Virus record (IMG/VR): IMGVR_UViG_3300027816_000055
From: a virus
DNA: 64,000 nt
Strand: one strand, 5' to 3'
Below the pieces are notes generated by a model. That model searched no databases. It had not been told where the DNA came from and saw only the letters and a list, made by a program, of their open reading frames with translations. Shown here one piece after another: positions 6,768-62,447 of the stretch; position 1 is the first letter of the stretch, and each line of letters starts with the position of its first letter. The position numbers and the translations under genes are program-made.

Positions 6768-7475
6768 CTATCCTATAATATTAATATTTTTAATACCAGT
6801 AGCATGTGCATTCAAATGCAATAATTTTACTGGATTTTTATTCTCCTTTTCATAAATAAATGGAGGATGTGTATATCCTGAATGTAATAATTTGCAAGGA
6901 TTATTTAAAATGTATTTATTAAAATGAGACTCGTCATGCCATATAGCGATATAATTATTTTTTAAATCTTTATTAATATTTTCATTCAATTCCATAGTCA
7001 TTTTAATAAAAGATTGTGCATTCGATCCAAAAAAACAAGCCTGACAATATTTTCCATATAGCATATCCGTAACTTCTACATATGCGGTTGAATTTATATT
7101 TGTTTCATATGTTCCGGTAGAATTTTCTAAATAAAAGTGTTTTGCCGCAACAATTTCATTATTAACGGGTAATATTTCTTCTGTGATAGTGGTATGTACC
7201 AACATATCGCAATCAATATAATAAATATAATCAAATGTTTGTAATAGACTTGATATACTATTAAAATAAAAAAATCTCATTAAAGTGGTAATTGGCCATG
7301 GTAAACAATTGATTTTAATAGTGTTTGTATTTATATAATTTATATCTTTATCTGTAAATACAAATAAAGTTTTATCGTGATCTGGTAGAAACTTTAAAAA
7401 TATACTTCTGTGCAATGGTTCTAAAAATGAAATATATTTATCAGTTGCAATCGTTAATATTGCTATTTTTGCCAT
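6768..7475 (-). CDS. GT6 (ABO-like) glycosyltransferase
   Basis: IATDKY, YIDCD (DXD), AIWHDESHFNKY. Confidence 0.9.
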   Translation of the reverse strand: MAKIAILTIATDKYISFLEPLHRSIFLKFLPDHDKTLFVFTDKDINYINTNTIKINCLPWPITTLMRFFYFNSISSLLQTFDYIYYIDCDMLVHTTITEEILPVNNEIVAAKHFYLENSTGTYETNINSTAYVEVTDMLYGKYCQACFFGSNAQSFIKMTMELNENINKDLKNNYIAIWHDESHFNKYILNNPCKLLHSGYTHPPFIYEKENKNPVKLLHLNAHATGIKNINIIG

Positions 7476-8188
7476 AATTTAAAATTGTTTAATTGTGATT
7501 TGTAAGTATCATAATACCATCCAGTGAAATGATAAATATATCCTTCCATAGTTTTTGAATTTAATGGCGGATCAATATAATTCCATTCTTTAGAAATATG
7601 TATCAGTTTATCATTCAAATAATACATAGTAGTATAGTTTAACAATGCCTGTTCAACTTGATGAATTCGTGGATACGGATCTTGTATCAACGACAATGCT
7701 TTGATCATATGATCGAATAAATACAAATGTTTTTGTGGAGTAAATAAGAACATTCCAGCATTAAAAAAATTATCGTTGTATATTTGATACTCTAAATTGA
7801 CATTTAATACGCGTTTACATTCGTTATACCAAGGTCTACAAAGTTGATTGTTTTTGAAATCCTGTTTGATTTCATCTGAAAGAAATGTCTGCTGCATGTC
7901 TTTGACAACATAAAAATAATCCGTGTCGTTGAAAATATCAAAGGGATTTGGTGAATCGTGTTTTATCAACACATCAGTATCAAGATACATACATCTATCA
8001 AAATTTAATGTTTGATATGGTAAGTATAATTTTGTAAACATATCATGAAATCTACTTGGTTGAAGTGGAGTTTCTATGCGTAGATATTTACAATTCCAAT
8101 TTGCACATGCACATTTAATACTTTCTTCAACATTTGAAGAAACGATATGTGGATTATTTTTTGTATTAAATGATACAATACAATTCAT
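7463..8188 (-). CDS. GT8-like glycosyltransferase
   Basis: YLDTDV, FNAGMFL, EQALLN, EWN, IYHFTG. Confidence 0.85.
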   Translation of the reverse strand: MNCIVSFNTKNNPHIVSSNVEESIKCACANWNCKYLRIETPLQPSRFHDMFTKLYLPYQTLNFDRCMYLDTDVLIKHDSPNPFDIFNDTDYFYVVKDMQQTFLSDEIKQDFKNNQLCRPWYNECKRVLNVNLEYQIYNDNFFNAGMFLFTPQKHLYLFDHMIKALSLIQDPYPRIHQVEQALLNYTTMYYLNDKLIHISKEWNYIDPPLNSKTMEGYIYHFTGWYYDTYKSQLNNFKLWQK

Positions 8189-8198
8189 AAACATATAT

Positions 8199-10334: not shown

Positions 10335-11431
10335 AAATTACAGGCAAACATCCTACTAAGCTTAATGATCCTATAATTAAACATCCTGCTATGCATGGAA
10401 ATAGATGGCAAATAGATCCAACCGCTGAACCTCATACTAGTTTTGATAAATTATCCAAACATCAAGTGGATGAATTTGCTGTAAACAATATGGACACATG
10501 GACTGATACTAATCATAATGACGTAGATATTGGCTACAATGAATTTTATGAAGAGTTAACAGGGGGAGTTGGTGATGCAACTGCTCCACATGATGTTGAT
10601 CCAATTGAATTGGCATTGGGGCAAACTGTAGAAATGGAACATACAACAGATCCAAACGTTGCCACCGAAATTGCATTGGATCATTTGAGTGAAGATCCAA
10701 AATATTATACCAAACTCAAAAAAGCAGGATTGGCAAAAGAGTTAGATCAAATTGGAACATCAACAGGATTTGGTGATCCAGATCATTCAATTAATCATGA
10801 AAAGCTAGTAGGGTCCAATAAAACAGCAATCGCTGGAAACAATATTGCAGGGAAAATCGGTAATACACCCGATGATCATGTCAATAAAGTTAATGACAAA
10901 ATTTCTAGTGATAATAAAAACTTAAATCAAATGAATAATGATGATTTTACAGTAGATGTAAATATCGAAGAACCTTCTTTGGAGGAAGATAGATGTACTG
11001 ATATTGCAAAAAGAAAATACAAAAAATGGCCAAGTGCATATGCCAGTGGTGCTGTTGTTCGTTGTCGAAAAGGTAAAATATGGAAAAAGACTCAGGAAGA
11101 AATTGAACAGATCAAAAAAGAATTAGAAGAAGATTTCTCAAAAGAAAAAAAACAAGGATTGCATGGCTGGTTTGCCCGTCGTGGCGGTAAAGGAGGCAAA
11201 GGTTGGGTAGATTGTAATACATGCCGCAAAGATCCTGAAACCGGAACTAAAAAATGCAAAACTTGCGGAAGACAATCCGGAGAAAAACGAAGTAAATATC
11301 CTGCGTGCCGACCTACACCTAGTCAATGCACAAAAAAAGGAACCAGTCATAAAAAGGGTCCAAGTACGGTTTCATGGAAGAATGAAGTATCATTGACAGA
11401 AATTGCTAAACGATTGTTAAGTGATGAATAA
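10331..11431 (+). CDS. Multi-domain protein (DUF5661-like plus Cys-rich DUF5872-like)
   Basis: GQTVEMEHT...IALDHLSEDPKYYTKL; KWPSAYASG; LHGWF...WVDC...YPACRP. Confidence 0.65.
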   Translation: MKITGKHPTKLNDPIIKHPAMHGNRWQIDPTAEPHTSFDKLSKHQVDEFAVNNMDTWTDTNHNDVDIGYNEFYEELTGGVGDATAPHDVDPIELALGQTVEMEHTTDPNVATEIALDHLSEDPKYYTKLKKAGLAKELDQIGTSTGFGDPDHSINHEKLVGSNKTAIAGNNIAGKIGNTPDDHVNKVNDKISSDNKNLNQMNNDDFTVDVNIEEPSLEEDRCTDIAKRKYKKWPSAYASGAVVRCRKGKIWKKTQEEIEQIKKELEEDFSKEKKQGLHGWFARRGGKGGKGWVDCNTCRKDPETGTKKCKTCGRQSGEKRSKYPACRPTPSQCTKKGTSHKKGPSTVSWKNEVSLTEIAKRLLSDE

Positions 11432-53763: not shown

Positions 53764-54147
53764 TGGTGGACGTGGAGGAAGTTGAATCCTCGTCTTTAAC
53801 ATTTTACCCATACCAGACTACATGTTTATTCATTTTGAATTTATTCGTGGCAATTCTAATAAATGAAAAACAAAATTGCCCTTAAGATTGCTCAATGTTC
53901 AACAATACAACACAATCCGATTATATCGTTTACTCTGATAAATGGCGTTTACATCAGTATCAGATATTCTGATATAAACGGGCTACCAGTAAATTAGGCA
54001 GCAACAGCGACTTCATCATAGTTGAAGTCATATGCAATTACATTGTCTTCTGCATTTAGGTTTTTAATGGATTTTTTTAGGAAGCCAACCATCATCTTCC
54101 ACATGCCTAGCATGACTAGTATATTAAATCGAAACCAGTACACGCCC
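53764..54147 (-). ncRNA. ssrA: tmRNA; tag reading frame 54053-53994 (AEDNVIAYDFNYDEVAVAA)
   Basis: GGGCGTG/CACGTCC acceptor with G3.U70, ACCA end, T-arm GAGG-ATTCAACTT-CCTC, tag ending in AA-TAA. Confidence 0.93.
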
Positions 54148-61921: not shown

Positions 61922-61996
61922 TGGTGCGCCCAGCGAGATTCGAACTCGCAAATATAGTTTTAGAGACCACTGTTTTAACCGTTAAACTATGGACGC
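61922..61996 (-). tRNA. Amber suppressor tRNA (anticodon CTA)
   Basis: GTGGT-CTCTAAA-ACTAT; GCGTCCA/TGGGCGC-A-CCA; TTCGAAT. Confidence 0.92.
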
Positions 61997-62236
61997 ATTA
62001 ATAGTAGCTTCATTCAGATCATCAATAACGACGTTTACATTTTTGAATTTTAAACTTCCCTTGGTGTGCGAGCTATCAGGAGTTTCTTTTGTGGTCCAAC
62101 CAACATTTGCATTGACATGGTTGACATAATAGGTCGTTCCTTTAGTTTTTAACACCCACATTGGGATATTATTGTCAGTCAAGTGCGCTTTGTTGAAGTG
62201 AAATACAACTTCTTTGCAATTCTATAATGTAGTCAT
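61982..62236 (-). CDS. Hypothetical phage protein with an in-frame TAG at codon 5
   Basis: AAGGA-N8-ATG ACT ACA TTA TAG AAT TGC AAA GAA GTT GTA TTT CAC TTC AAC AAA continues into MWVLKTKG...KETPDSSHTKGSLK. Confidence 0.7.
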
Positions 62237-62270
62237 ATGATGTATCCTTATTACGTCCAATAGCATAGAG

Positions 62271-62447
62271 TCACTTTGCGTCGTTGTCAATCTTTTTCTG
62301 TGCCGACACCCAATCAGGTAAATGCTTTGTAACCCATTCTACAAGCGCAGTCTCAAATCCAATATCATATTTCTTTTTTTCGCTTTCAATCCATTTGTGC
62401 TTCATTATTTCTTCACGAATTAATATAAATTTTTGATATAAAGACAT
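62271..62447 (-). CDS. DUF4032-like small protein (58 aa, not in the ORF track)
   Basis: REEIMKHKWIESEK...DIGFETALVEWV.KH. Confidence 0.75.
   Translation of the reverse strand: MSLYQKFILIREEIMKHKWIESEKKKYDIGFETALVEWVTKHLPDWVSAQKKIDNDAK

What the first reader, a model, noticed from the sequence alone, without database searches (positions are those of the whole stretch)
61922..62236. Amber-suppressor tRNA overlapped by a gene that needs amber readthrough
Seen: a clean tRNA with anticodon CTA at 61922-61996. The gene directly upstream has an SD (AAGGA) 8 nt before the ATG at 62236 and reads ATG ACT ACA TTA TAG AAT TGC AAA GAA GTT... (MTTL*NCKEVVFHFNKAHL...). There is no in-frame ATG, GTG or TTG between the TAG (62224-62222) and codon 19. 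Its stop codon lies inside the tRNA D arm, a 15-nt overlap. From memory, homologues of this phage protein family conserve the segment K.(I/V)VFHFNK.HL...IPMWV, so the part after the TAG looks like genuine coding sequence. Inference: this is a self-contained conditional switch in which the protein is made only once the suppressor matures, and tRNA excision destroys the mRNA stop codon. It could also be incipient TAG recoding.
Basis: partly seen in the sequence, partly recalled or inferred. Interest (0 to 1): 0.85.

Follow-up and report, generated by a model that had tools for sequence, protein, structure and literature searches.

The report
Phage gene gated by its own amber-suppressor tRNA
A large phage that otherwise uses the normal genetic code keeps a UAG stop as the fifth codon of one small conserved gene. 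Its own UAG-reading tRNA lies directly behind that gene, so the protein is very probably made only when the tRNA overrides the stop.

Summary
The tRNA(CUA) lies at 61922-61996(-). AAGGA sits 8 nt before the ATG at 62236. A TAG is codon 5, and no canonical start follows until a TTG 14 codons later. The TAA stop lies inside the tRNA, a 15-nt overlap.

The TAG is neither an error nor chance. Of 81 homologous loci, 77 (68 distinct sequences) carry TAG, never TAA or TGA, 1-5 codons after an SD+ATG and just before the invariant FHFNK motif. In 52 of 81 loci a tRNA(CUA) lies within 3 kb on the same strand.

The window (64 kb) and a 99%-complete 344-kb relative are otherwise standard code, and TAG also serves as a terminator. 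This is therefore a one-gene translational gate, not genome recoding.

The gated protein has no Pfam, PHROG or PDB match. A cultured phage, Rhizobium phage RHph_I1_18, has the same layout, unannotated.

The stop-inside-tRNA overlap is specific to this sub-lineage, so the "excision destroys the stop" idea is only inferred.

This scan has already found the same gate family on at least seven other genomes. I found no description of it in the searchable literature. No protein or RNA evidence was obtainable.

The parts
62262..62290 (-). Promoter-like site TTGACA-17 nt-TATGCT just upstream of the gated gene
   Evidence: Consensus scan, 10 of 12 matches. The hexamers are kept in the close relatives L002 and L003. 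This is a consensus match only; function is not shown.
62245..62249 (-). Shine-Dalgarno AAGGA, 8 nt before the ATG
   Evidence: Read from the sequence. 62 of 68 distinct gates have an SD-like motif in front of the leader ATG.
62225..62236 (-). Four-codon leader ATG ACT ACA TTA (M-T-T-L)
   Evidence: Leaders in relatives are 2-6 codons long and variable in sequence.
62222..62224 (-). Gate codon TAG (codon 5), followed by A
   Evidence: TAG is present in 77 of 81 loci, never TAA or TGA. The next base is A in 65 and G in 3 of 68 distinct gates, against A in 26 of 91 real TAG terminators.
61985..62221 (-). 79 codons after the gate: the FHFNK domain protein (short form, N-terminal domain only)
   Evidence: 134 homologues in the word-indexed search. 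159 clusters in the exhaustive profile search. AF2 pLDDT is 94, with the first beta strand at residues 2-10, upstream of any canonical start. In the 13 codons before the TTG, 18 codon differences are synonymous and 3 non-synonymous.
61982..61984 (-). TAA stop of the gated ORF, made of tRNA positions 13-15
   Evidence: The same overlap is present in L002-L006 and L009.
61922..61996 (-). tRNA with anticodon CUA (anticodon at 61961-61963), CCA encoded, discriminator A73
   Evidence: ARAGORN. Rfam 65.7 bits. Across 44 distinct relatives, 16 of 18 stem pairs show compensatory changes and the TCTAA of the anticodon loop is invariant.

Best explanation
This is a suppressor-tRNA-gated gene. Ribosomes start at the SD-ATG at 62236, translate four codons and meet UAG. 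Without a UAG-reading tRNA they release a tetrapeptide and nothing useful is made. With the phage tRNA(CUA), encoded directly behind the gene and charged by a host synthetase, they read through and make the 84-residue FHFNK protein.

The gate sits in a short, variable leader. The identity of the inserted residue therefore does not matter, and almost nothing is wasted when the gate is shut.

Because gene and tRNA are neighbours on one strand, probably in one transcript, the pair would act as a coherent feed-forward loop. Protein output would depend both on mRNA and on accumulated, processed, charged phage tRNA, which delays and sharpens expression.

Shown here: the anatomy, the family-wide conservation of TAG, the tRNA linkage, the standard code elsewhere, and purifying selection between the TAG and the first canonical start. 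Inferred: actual read-through, the amino acid inserted, co-transcription, and the purpose of the gating. The biochemical role of the protein is unknown.
For: (1) 77 of 81 homologous loci (68 distinct gate sequences) have TAG, never TAA or TGA, 1-5 codons after an SD+ATG and 7-11 codons before FHFNK.

(2) A tRNA(CUA) lies within 3 kb on the same strand in 52 of 81 loci. It is often the only tRNA there, and in many loci its 3' end lies a few tens of nt before the leader ATG. In the 344-kb genome G001 it sits at 188959-189033, 20 nt before the gate ATG at 189054 and 8 kb away from the main tRNA array.

(3) The tRNA family is under selection. There are 44 distinct sequences, compensatory changes in 16 of 18 pairs, and an invariant anticodon.

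(4) The stretch between the TAG and the first canonical start is coding. It holds invariant residues, shows 18 synonymous against 3 non-synonymous codon differences, and the TTG is not conserved. It also forms strand 1 of a confident fold.

(5) The rest is standard code. The window has one gate and no other TAG-split genes. G001 has 389 ORFs covering 93% of the genome, and about 25-30 of them end in TAG.

(6) The base after the gate is A or G in 68 of 68 distinct gates, across five different amino acids. Real TAG terminators mostly have T. From published E. coli work as I recall it, a 3' purine favours amber suppression.

(7) In the neighbouring gated PTH2 gene of two cultured relatives, the stop codon matches the phage's suppressor. 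Phosso has a TAG gate and a tRNA(CUA). Atu_ph07 has a TGA gate and a tRNA(UCA), and I found no tRNA(CUA) among its 31 Rfam tRNA matches (ARAGORN typed the anticodon of 30) (PMC6102473).

(8) No stable RNA structure surrounds the gate (z = +1.8).
Against: - There is no protein, ribosome-profiling or RNA evidence.
- The 93%-complete 330-kb relative G006 keeps the gate, but no tRNA(CUA) was detectable in the recovered contig. The gate there is 4 kb from the contig end, so the tRNA may lie in the missing part.
- In 29 of 81 loci no tRNA(CUA) lies within 3 kb.
- TAG is still used as a terminator, and I found no excess of back-up stops behind it (n = 91 against 1014, p = 0.24 and 0.56). If the suppressor is active it causes some unwanted read-through, or it is weak or short-lived.
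- 51 of 68 gates are followed by AUU, AUC or AUA. In those loci, though not in this window, these could serve as weak re-initiation codons.
Confidence: 0.8

Rival explanations
1. The four-codon ORF is a real leader peptide that ends at UAG. The main frame is translated by termination-reinitiation or by non-canonical initiation just after the stop, without any suppressor.
For: 51 of 68 distinct gates are followed by ATT, ATC or ATA, which are weak start codons in E. coli (my knowledge of infC-type AUU starts). TAG-less homologues have their ATG exactly at the TAG position.
Against: - In this window the codons after TAG are AAT TGC AAA GAA GTT GTA..., with no canonical or near-cognate start for 13 codons.
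- 17 of 68 gates are followed by AAT, AAC, ACT, AAA, GAA, GTT or GTA.
- The SD is spaced for the leader ATG, not for the codon after the stop.
- This reading explains neither the exclusive use of TAG, nor the linked tRNA(CUA), nor the TAG/TGA match to the suppressor anticodon in Phosso and Atu_ph07.
Confidence: 0.06
2. Read-through happens but does not depend on the phage tRNA. A host near-cognate tRNA or a host suppressor reads the leaky early UAG, and the phage tRNA(CUA) has another role.
For: G006 keeps the gate without a detectable tRNA(CUA). 29 of 81 loci have none within 3 kb. Termination after very short nascent peptides is known to be inefficient (my knowledge).
Against: The tRNA(CUA) lies within 3 kb in 64% of loci. 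The expectation is about 2% for a randomly placed gene in a genome of about 340 kb. In G001 it stands apart from the main tRNA array and directly in front of the gate. The stop codon and anticodon match in Phosso and Atu_ph07.
Confidence: 0.07
3. The phage is on its way to, or partly uses, a TAG-sense code (code-15-like), and this gene is just one recoded gene among many outside the window.
For: TAG is the rarest stop in the window (3 of 64-72 ORFs). GC is low at 32%. A suppressor tRNA is present. These are the preconditions proposed in bioRxiv 10.1101/2021.08.26.457843.
Against: - The 64-kb window, including the tail and baseplate genes, has no other TAG-interrupted gene.
- The near-complete relative G001 (344 kb) is fully standard code, with about 25-30 ORFs ending in TAG and one convincing gate.
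- The gate always sits in the first 2-6 codons, which is a regulatory position. It is not scattered through the ORF as in recoded phages.
- The rest of this phage's genome was not available.
Confidence: 0.05
4. The TAG is a sequencing or assembly error, or the gene is a decaying pseudogene.
For: None beyond the presence of a stop codon.
Against: The same TAG is present in a Logan assembly and in 76 IMG/VR loci. The reading frame is under purifying selection on both sides of the first canonical start.
Confidence: 0.01

Closest known systems
Stop-codon-recoded phages with phage-encoded suppressor tRNAs (TAG read as Gln, 'code 15'; crAss-like, Lak and others; bioRxiv 10.1101/2021.08.26.457843, PMC7886860)
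   Same: A phage-encoded tRNA(CUA) in a standard-code host lets phage genes with in-frame TAG be translated. The papers propose it as a timing device.
   Different: In those phages there are many in-frame TAGs scattered through blocks of late genes, and TAG is abandoned as a stop. Here one TAG (in some relatives two) sits in the first 2-6 codons of a specific gene next to the tRNA. The rest of the genome is standard code, and TAG still terminates 5-10% of genes.
'Orphan' suppressor tRNAs of standard-code jumbo phages (XacN1 PMC5852040; RsoM2USA PMC8504454; Atu_ph07 PMC6102473; Summit PMC9022506)
   Same: Large standard-code phages that carry a CUA or UCA tRNA.
   Different: None of those papers names a specific target gene. 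XacN1 and Summit state that none was identified. The other two only note that many stop codons are possible targets. Here the target is identifiable: it was missed because the stop lies at the 5' end of an unannotated or truncated ORF, not at the end of an annotated one. I found no FHFNK homologue or gate next to the XacN1 or Xoo-sp13 suppressor tRNAs.
bldA control in Streptomyces (rare UUA codon plus tRNA-Leu(UAA); see PMC10732093 for adpA)
   Same: It works alike: translation of particular genes is made conditional on one dedicated tRNA.
   Different: bldA uses a rare sense codon and a cellular tRNA. Here the codon is a stop that competes with release factor, and the tRNA is viral and encoded in cis.
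Synthetic suppressor-tRNA feed-forward 'leak dampener' (PMC7969014)
   Same: A suppressor tRNA and a target gene carrying early nonsense codons are driven together, so output needs both. This removes leaky expression.
   Different: That system is engineered. The natural module here is conserved across dozens of phage lineages. In this window the tRNA overlaps the target's stop codon.

Membership tests
Suppressor-tRNA-gated phage gene (early in-frame stop plus cognate phage tRNA; a class seen repeatedly in this scan, not a published family) | In-frame stop within the first few codons after an SD+start | tested here: met
   TAG is codon 5, and AAGGA lies 8 nt before the ATG. The same holds in 77 of 81 loci.
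Suppressor-tRNA-gated phage gene (early in-frame stop plus cognate phage tRNA; a class seen repeatedly in this scan, not a published family) | Conserved coding sequence between the stop and the first canonical start | tested here: met
   FHFNK is invariant. Codon differences are 18 synonymous against 3 non-synonymous, and the TTG is not conserved. Strand 1 of the fold lies there.
Suppressor-tRNA-gated phage gene (early in-frame stop plus cognate phage tRNA; a class seen repeatedly in this scan, not a published family) | Phage tRNA whose anticodon matches the gate codon, linked in cis | tested here: met
   The tRNA(CUA) overlaps the 3' end of the gene. 52 of 81 loci have one within 3 kb.
Suppressor-tRNA-gated phage gene (early in-frame stop plus cognate phage tRNA; a class seen repeatedly in this scan, not a published family) | Genome otherwise standard code | tested here: met
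   Shown for the window and the relative G001. The rest of this phage's genome is not held.
Suppressor-tRNA-gated phage gene (early in-frame stop plus cognate phage tRNA; a class seen repeatedly in this scan, not a published family) | Read-through product actually made, and dependent on the tRNA | not testable with these tools
   This needs proteomics or reporters.
Code-15 (TAG-sense) recoded phage | Many in-frame TAGs inside conserved genes, and TAG not used as a terminator | tested here: not met
   There is one in-frame TAG in 64 kb. Two solid genes end in TAG (6768-7475, 7463-8194).
Pyrrolysine system (ARAGORN labels the tRNA 'Pyl') | tRNA-Pyl architecture and pylS/pylBCD genes | tested here: inconclusive
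   The label comes from the anticodon alone. The tRNA fits the general tRNA model end to end (65.7 bits), with an ordinary D loop (GG) and T loop. pyl genes were not searched for because no genome is held.
Leader-peptide / termination-reinitiation control | A usable start codon at or just after the leader's stop | tested here: not met
   In this window there is no ATG, GTG, TTG or AUH codon in the 13 codons after the TAG.
FHFNK domain protein family (no Pfam or PHROG entry) | Invariant FHFNK...P.W..K..G...Y..H...TKET...TKG motifs | tested here: met
   All are present in the window protein. No Pfam or PHROG match.

The most novel reading that the evidence does not exclude
In this sub-lineage the gated ORF and its own suppressor tRNA would be one transcript. 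RNase P cleavage at the tRNA 5' end (between 61997 and 61996) removes the last four sense codons and the stop of the ORF. Each primary transcript would then become either a tRNA donor plus a non-stop mRNA, which would feed the phage-encoded tmRNA at 53764-54147, or an intact mRNA that needs tRNA matured from sister transcripts. That would be a self-contained pulse generator or ratio sensor, built from a tRNA overlapping its own target.
Probability: 0.15. Interest if true: 0.9.

Novelty: new variant of a known kind. Interest (0 to 1): 0.78.

Why it matters
Suppressor tRNAs in standard-code phages have been a loose end. Of the genome papers I read, none names a specific target, and two say explicitly that none was identified.

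An early stop codon that locks one conserved gene, next to the matching tRNA, gives those tRNAs a concrete and testable job. It also shows a natural translational AND-gate of the kind synthetic biologists have built.

It has a practical side as well. Gene callers truncate or drop these genes, so annotation pipelines miss them. Database entries start at Met-26, and the gene is unannotated in RHph_I1_18.

The gated protein has no Pfam or PHROG family and no convincing structural match in the PDB. A cultured Rhizobium phage with the same layout makes the hypothesis directly testable.

Tried and rejected
- Function of the protein. There was no Pfam or PHROG hit and no PDB sequence hit. Foldseek and VIA fold searches gave only weak, generic matches: the C-terminal domain of long forms is ferredoxin/ACT/RRM-like at Z about 5, and the N-terminal domain scores at best Z 3.4. 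The ESM Atlas gave only viral hypotheticals. Domain fusions found in the exhaustive search gave no useful Pfam clue. The neighbourhood across loci is variable.
- tRNA identity. There is no close paralogue among the window's or G001's tRNAs (best 63-66% identity). A73 and a short variable loop argue against Gln-, Tyr-, Leu- or Ser-type recognition and are compatible with Lys. This is inference only.
- Back-up stops behind TAG terminators, as a signature of active suppression. None was found beyond expectation. The two window genes with TAA 0 and 2 codons after TAG are not significant.
- A read-through-stimulating RNA structure at the gate. None was found.
- XacN1 and Xoo-sp13. There is no gate next to their suppressor tRNAs.
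- Raw reads and RNA runs.
- Whole genome of the window. None is held.

Full report
**Observation**

ARAGORN finds 14 tRNAs and a tmRNA in the window. One tRNA, at 61922-61996 on the minus strand, has anticodon CTA. Rfam's tRNA model matches it end to end at 65.7 bits, E 8.8e-14. The 'Pyl' label is only ARAGORN's name for that anticodon.

Read on the minus strand, the gene in front of the tRNA runs as follows:
- AAGGA at 62249-62245, then an 8-nt spacer.
- ATG ACT ACA TTA at 62236-62225.
- TAG at 62224-62222.
- 79 sense codons, then TAA at 61984-61982.

The first canonical start after the TAG is the TTG at 62182, 14 codons later. The TAA is made of tRNA positions 13-15, so ORF and tRNA overlap by 15 nt.

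**The TAG is neither an error nor chance**

A Logan assembly of run SRR6466476 holds the identical gene with the TAG. I do not know whether that run is independent of the window's source.

A search of IMG/VR returned 80 homologous loci. I walked upstream from the conserved motif in each:
- 77 of 81 loci, window included, have an in-frame TAG 1-5 codons after an ATG and 7-11 codons before FHFNK. These are 68 distinct gate sequences.
- The stop is always TAG, never TAA or TGA.
- An SD-like motif precedes the ATG in 62 of the 68 distinct gates.
- Leaders are 2-6 codons long and variable in sequence.

The same scan finds this one case in the 64-kb window.

Three homologues without a TAG (L058, L067, L069) have their ATG exactly at the TAG-aligned position. 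A fourth TAG-less homologue (L020) starts a few codons further in, still upstream of FHFNK.

Many database proteins of this family are 59 residues long and start at the internal Met of IPMWV. That is what a gene caller produces when it meets the TAG.

**The stretch behind the TAG is coding**

- FHFNK and further residues are invariant in 48 sequences.
- Against five relatives, the 13 codons between the TAG and the TTG show 18 synonymous and 3 non-synonymous codon differences.
- The TTG itself is CTA, TTA or CTG in four of the five relatives.
- AlphaFold models are confident: pLDDT 94 for the 79-residue domain and 86 for a 186-residue long form. They place the first beta strand at residues 2-10 after the TAG.

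Translation must therefore begin upstream of FHFNK. In this window the only way in is through the TAG.

**The tRNA is linked and functional-looking**

- In 52 of 81 loci a tRNA(CUA) lies within 3 kb on the same strand. It is often the only tRNA there.
- In many loci its 3' end lies a few tens of nt before the leader ATG.
- In the window's sub-lineage (L001-L006, L009) it lies behind the gene, with the same 15-nt overlap.
- The 44 distinct tRNA(CUA) sequences keep the cloverleaf. Compensatory changes occur in 16 of 18 pairs, and the TCTAA of the anticodon loop is invariant.

**The genome is otherwise standard code**

The window is densely coding under table 11. It has no other TAG-interrupted gene, including its tail and baseplate genes.

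No whole genome is held for the window, so I fetched relatives:
- G001 (343.6 kb, 99% complete). It has 389 ORFs covering 93% of the genome, about 25-30 ending in TAG, and 32 tRNAs plus a tmRNA. There is one convincing gate at 189054, 20 nt behind a tRNA(CUA) that stands 8 kb apart from the main tRNA array.
- G008 (247 kb, 97% complete). Its tRNA(CUA) lies 11.7 kb from the gate.
- G006 (330 kb, 93% complete). It keeps the gate but shows no tRNA(CUA) in the recovered contig. The gate is 4 kb from the contig end. This is an open caveat.

**Context of the gate**

The base after the gate TAG is A in 65 and G in 3 of the 68 distinct gates, although the following codon encodes Ile, Asn, Thr, Lys, Val or Glu. 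At 91 real TAG terminators in four genomes the next base is A in only 26, and T is commonest. These counts are not phylogenetically independent.

From the E. coli literature as I recall it, a 3' purine favours amber suppression. No stable RNA structure surrounds the gate (z = +1.8). I found no excess of back-up stops behind TAG terminators (p = 0.24 and 0.56).

**Other gated genes, and a stop-anticodon match**

Next to the FHFNK gene, some loci carry further gates:
- A PTH2-like gene in L020 and L058. In these two loci the FHFNK gene itself lacks the TAG.
- A homing-endonuclease-like ORF with a NUMOD3 motif in L033, L042 and L068. It has copied the leader M-x-TAG-I-E-Y, and it ends at the FHFNK gate TAG.

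In two cultured jumbo phages the FHFNK domain lies two genes downstream of a PTH2 gene.

Sinorhizobium phage Phosso:
- Its PTH2 gene opens ATG AAG TAT TAG.
- An isolated tRNA(CUA), annotated as undetermined, lies 4.4 kb upstream on the same strand.

Agrobacterium phage Atu_ph07:
- The orthologue is 72% identical and matches Pfam PTH2 at E 1.6e-20. The annotated start cuts into the domain.
- It opens ATG ATT GGC GAA CAC TTT TGA.
- The phage has a tRNA(UCA). I found no tRNA(CUA) among its 31 Rfam tRNA matches; ARAGORN typed the anticodon of 30.
- Its paper also reports a UCA suppressor (PMC6102473).

Stop codon and anticodon thus change together. This is the strongest indirect evidence that the tRNA is what opens such gates.

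**What the protein is**

It remains unknown. There is no Pfam, PHROG or PDB sequence match. No convincing fold match exists for the N-terminal domain (best Z 3.4). The C-terminal domain of long forms gives only a generic ferredoxin-like match (Z about 5).

The family is small, at 159 clusters at 50% identity. It occurs as a short form (as here), as a long form, or as a C-terminal domain. The window's form has lost the C-terminal domain, and its last four residues are encoded by the tRNA's 5' end.

**Mechanism proposed**

Initiation occurs at the leader ATG. At codon 5 the suppressor tRNA competes with release factor 1. Read-through yields the protein; termination yields a tetrapeptide.

The inserted residue lies in a variable leader, so its identity should not matter. 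The tRNA has G1-C72, A73 and a short variable loop. This does not look Gln-, Tyr-, Leu- or Ser-like and is compatible with Lys, but that is inference.

Gene and tRNA on one strand, behind a promoter-like site, would form a coherent feed-forward loop like the synthetic leak dampener of PMC7969014.

It follows from the geometry, but it holds only in this sub-lineage. In RHph_I1_18 the ORF ends 10 nt before the tRNA, and elsewhere the tRNA is upstream. I keep it as the novel case. The phage tmRNA at 53764-54147 is a possible sink for the resulting non-stop mRNAs.

**Comparison with what is known**

Published phage recoding concerns genomes with many in-frame stops in late genes (bioRxiv 10.1101/2021.08.26.457843). 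For standard-code phages with suppressor tRNAs, none of the papers names a specific target:
- XacN1 and Summit say none was identified (PMC5852040; PMC9022506).
- RsoM2USA and Atu_ph07 only note that many stop codons are possible targets (PMC8504454; PMC6102473).

My searches of the held library found no description of an early-stop gate.

Within this scan, however, the same FHFNK gate has been followed up on at least seven other genomes. Gated PTH2 genes have been followed up on many more. This window is another member, with a distinctive short form and a tRNA-overlap layout.

A cultured carrier of exactly this layout exists: Rhizobium phage RHph_I1_18. Its gene (ATG AGT GAG TTC ATG TAG AAC...) is unannotated, and the tRNA(CUA) follows 10 nt after the stop.

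**Verdict**

- Observation: confirmed.
- Interpretation: partly supported. The switch is supported, incipient recoding is not, and the stop-destroying excision is unproven and lineage-specific.
- Confidence that translation depends on the phage suppressor tRNA: about 0.8.
- The evidence is comparative only. No protein or RNA evidence could be obtained.

Noticed in passing
L102:2478-2814 (Rhizobium phage RHph_I1_18, MN988519.1, about 10911-11247): This cultured phage has the same short-form gated gene (ATG AGT GAG TTC ATG TAG AAC...), with the tRNA(CUA) starting 10 nt after its TGA stop. The gene is not annotated in GenBank. It is a ready experimental system.
   Followed up: partly
L104:1387-1881 and L138:484-559 (Phosso); L103:1432-1881 and L147:114-188 (Atu_ph07): Orthologous PTH2 genes in two cultured jumbo phages are gated by TAG (phage has tRNA-CUA) and by TGA (phage has tRNA-UCA, and no CUA found among 31 tRNA matches). 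The annotated starts cut into the PTH2 domain.
   Followed up: yes
L033:2317-2985, L042:2317-2985, L068:2299-2985: A homing-endonuclease-like ORF with a NUMOD3 motif sits directly upstream of the FHFNK gene. It carries its own copy of the gate leader (M-x-TAG-I-E-Y...), is in frame with the FHFNK gene, and ends at that gene's gate TAG. Read-through could therefore give a fusion protein.
   Followed up: partly
L020:2613-2987, L058:2321-2698: A PTH2-like 121-aa gene with TAG at codon 3 lies directly upstream of FHFNK genes that themselves lack the TAG. The gate seems to have moved to the first gene of the pair.
   Followed up: partly
G006 = L107-L123 (IMGVR_UViG_3300042564_002819, 330 kb): This relative keeps the gate (about 325.9 kb) inside a tRNA array, but no tRNA(CUA) is detectable in the 93%-complete contig. 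Two odd tRNAs with unassignable anticodon loops lie at 324615-324690 and 329728-329801.
   Followed up: partly
window 6768-7475(-) and 7463-8194(-): The only two solid TAG-terminated genes of the window have a TAA 0 and 2 codons after the TAG. Pooled over four genomes, no such excess exists (p = 0.56).
   Followed up: yes
A5 alignment of 44 tRNA(CUA) sequences, columns 8-9: Many members have A or G instead of the near-universal U at tRNA position 8, and three have G73 instead of A73. I did not work out what this means for folding or charging.
   Followed up: no
window 53764-54147(-): A phage-encoded tmRNA (tag AEDNVIAYDFNYDEVAVAA) lies in the same minus-strand RNA-gene cluster. Relatives G001 and G008 also carry tmRNAs. 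It may be relevant to non-stop mRNAs made by tRNA processing.
   Followed up: no
window 62271-62447(-): The 58-aa ORF just upstream of the gated gene has a weak DUF4032-like match (E 2.6e-4, below threshold). It is conserved in 7 loci.
   Followed up: no
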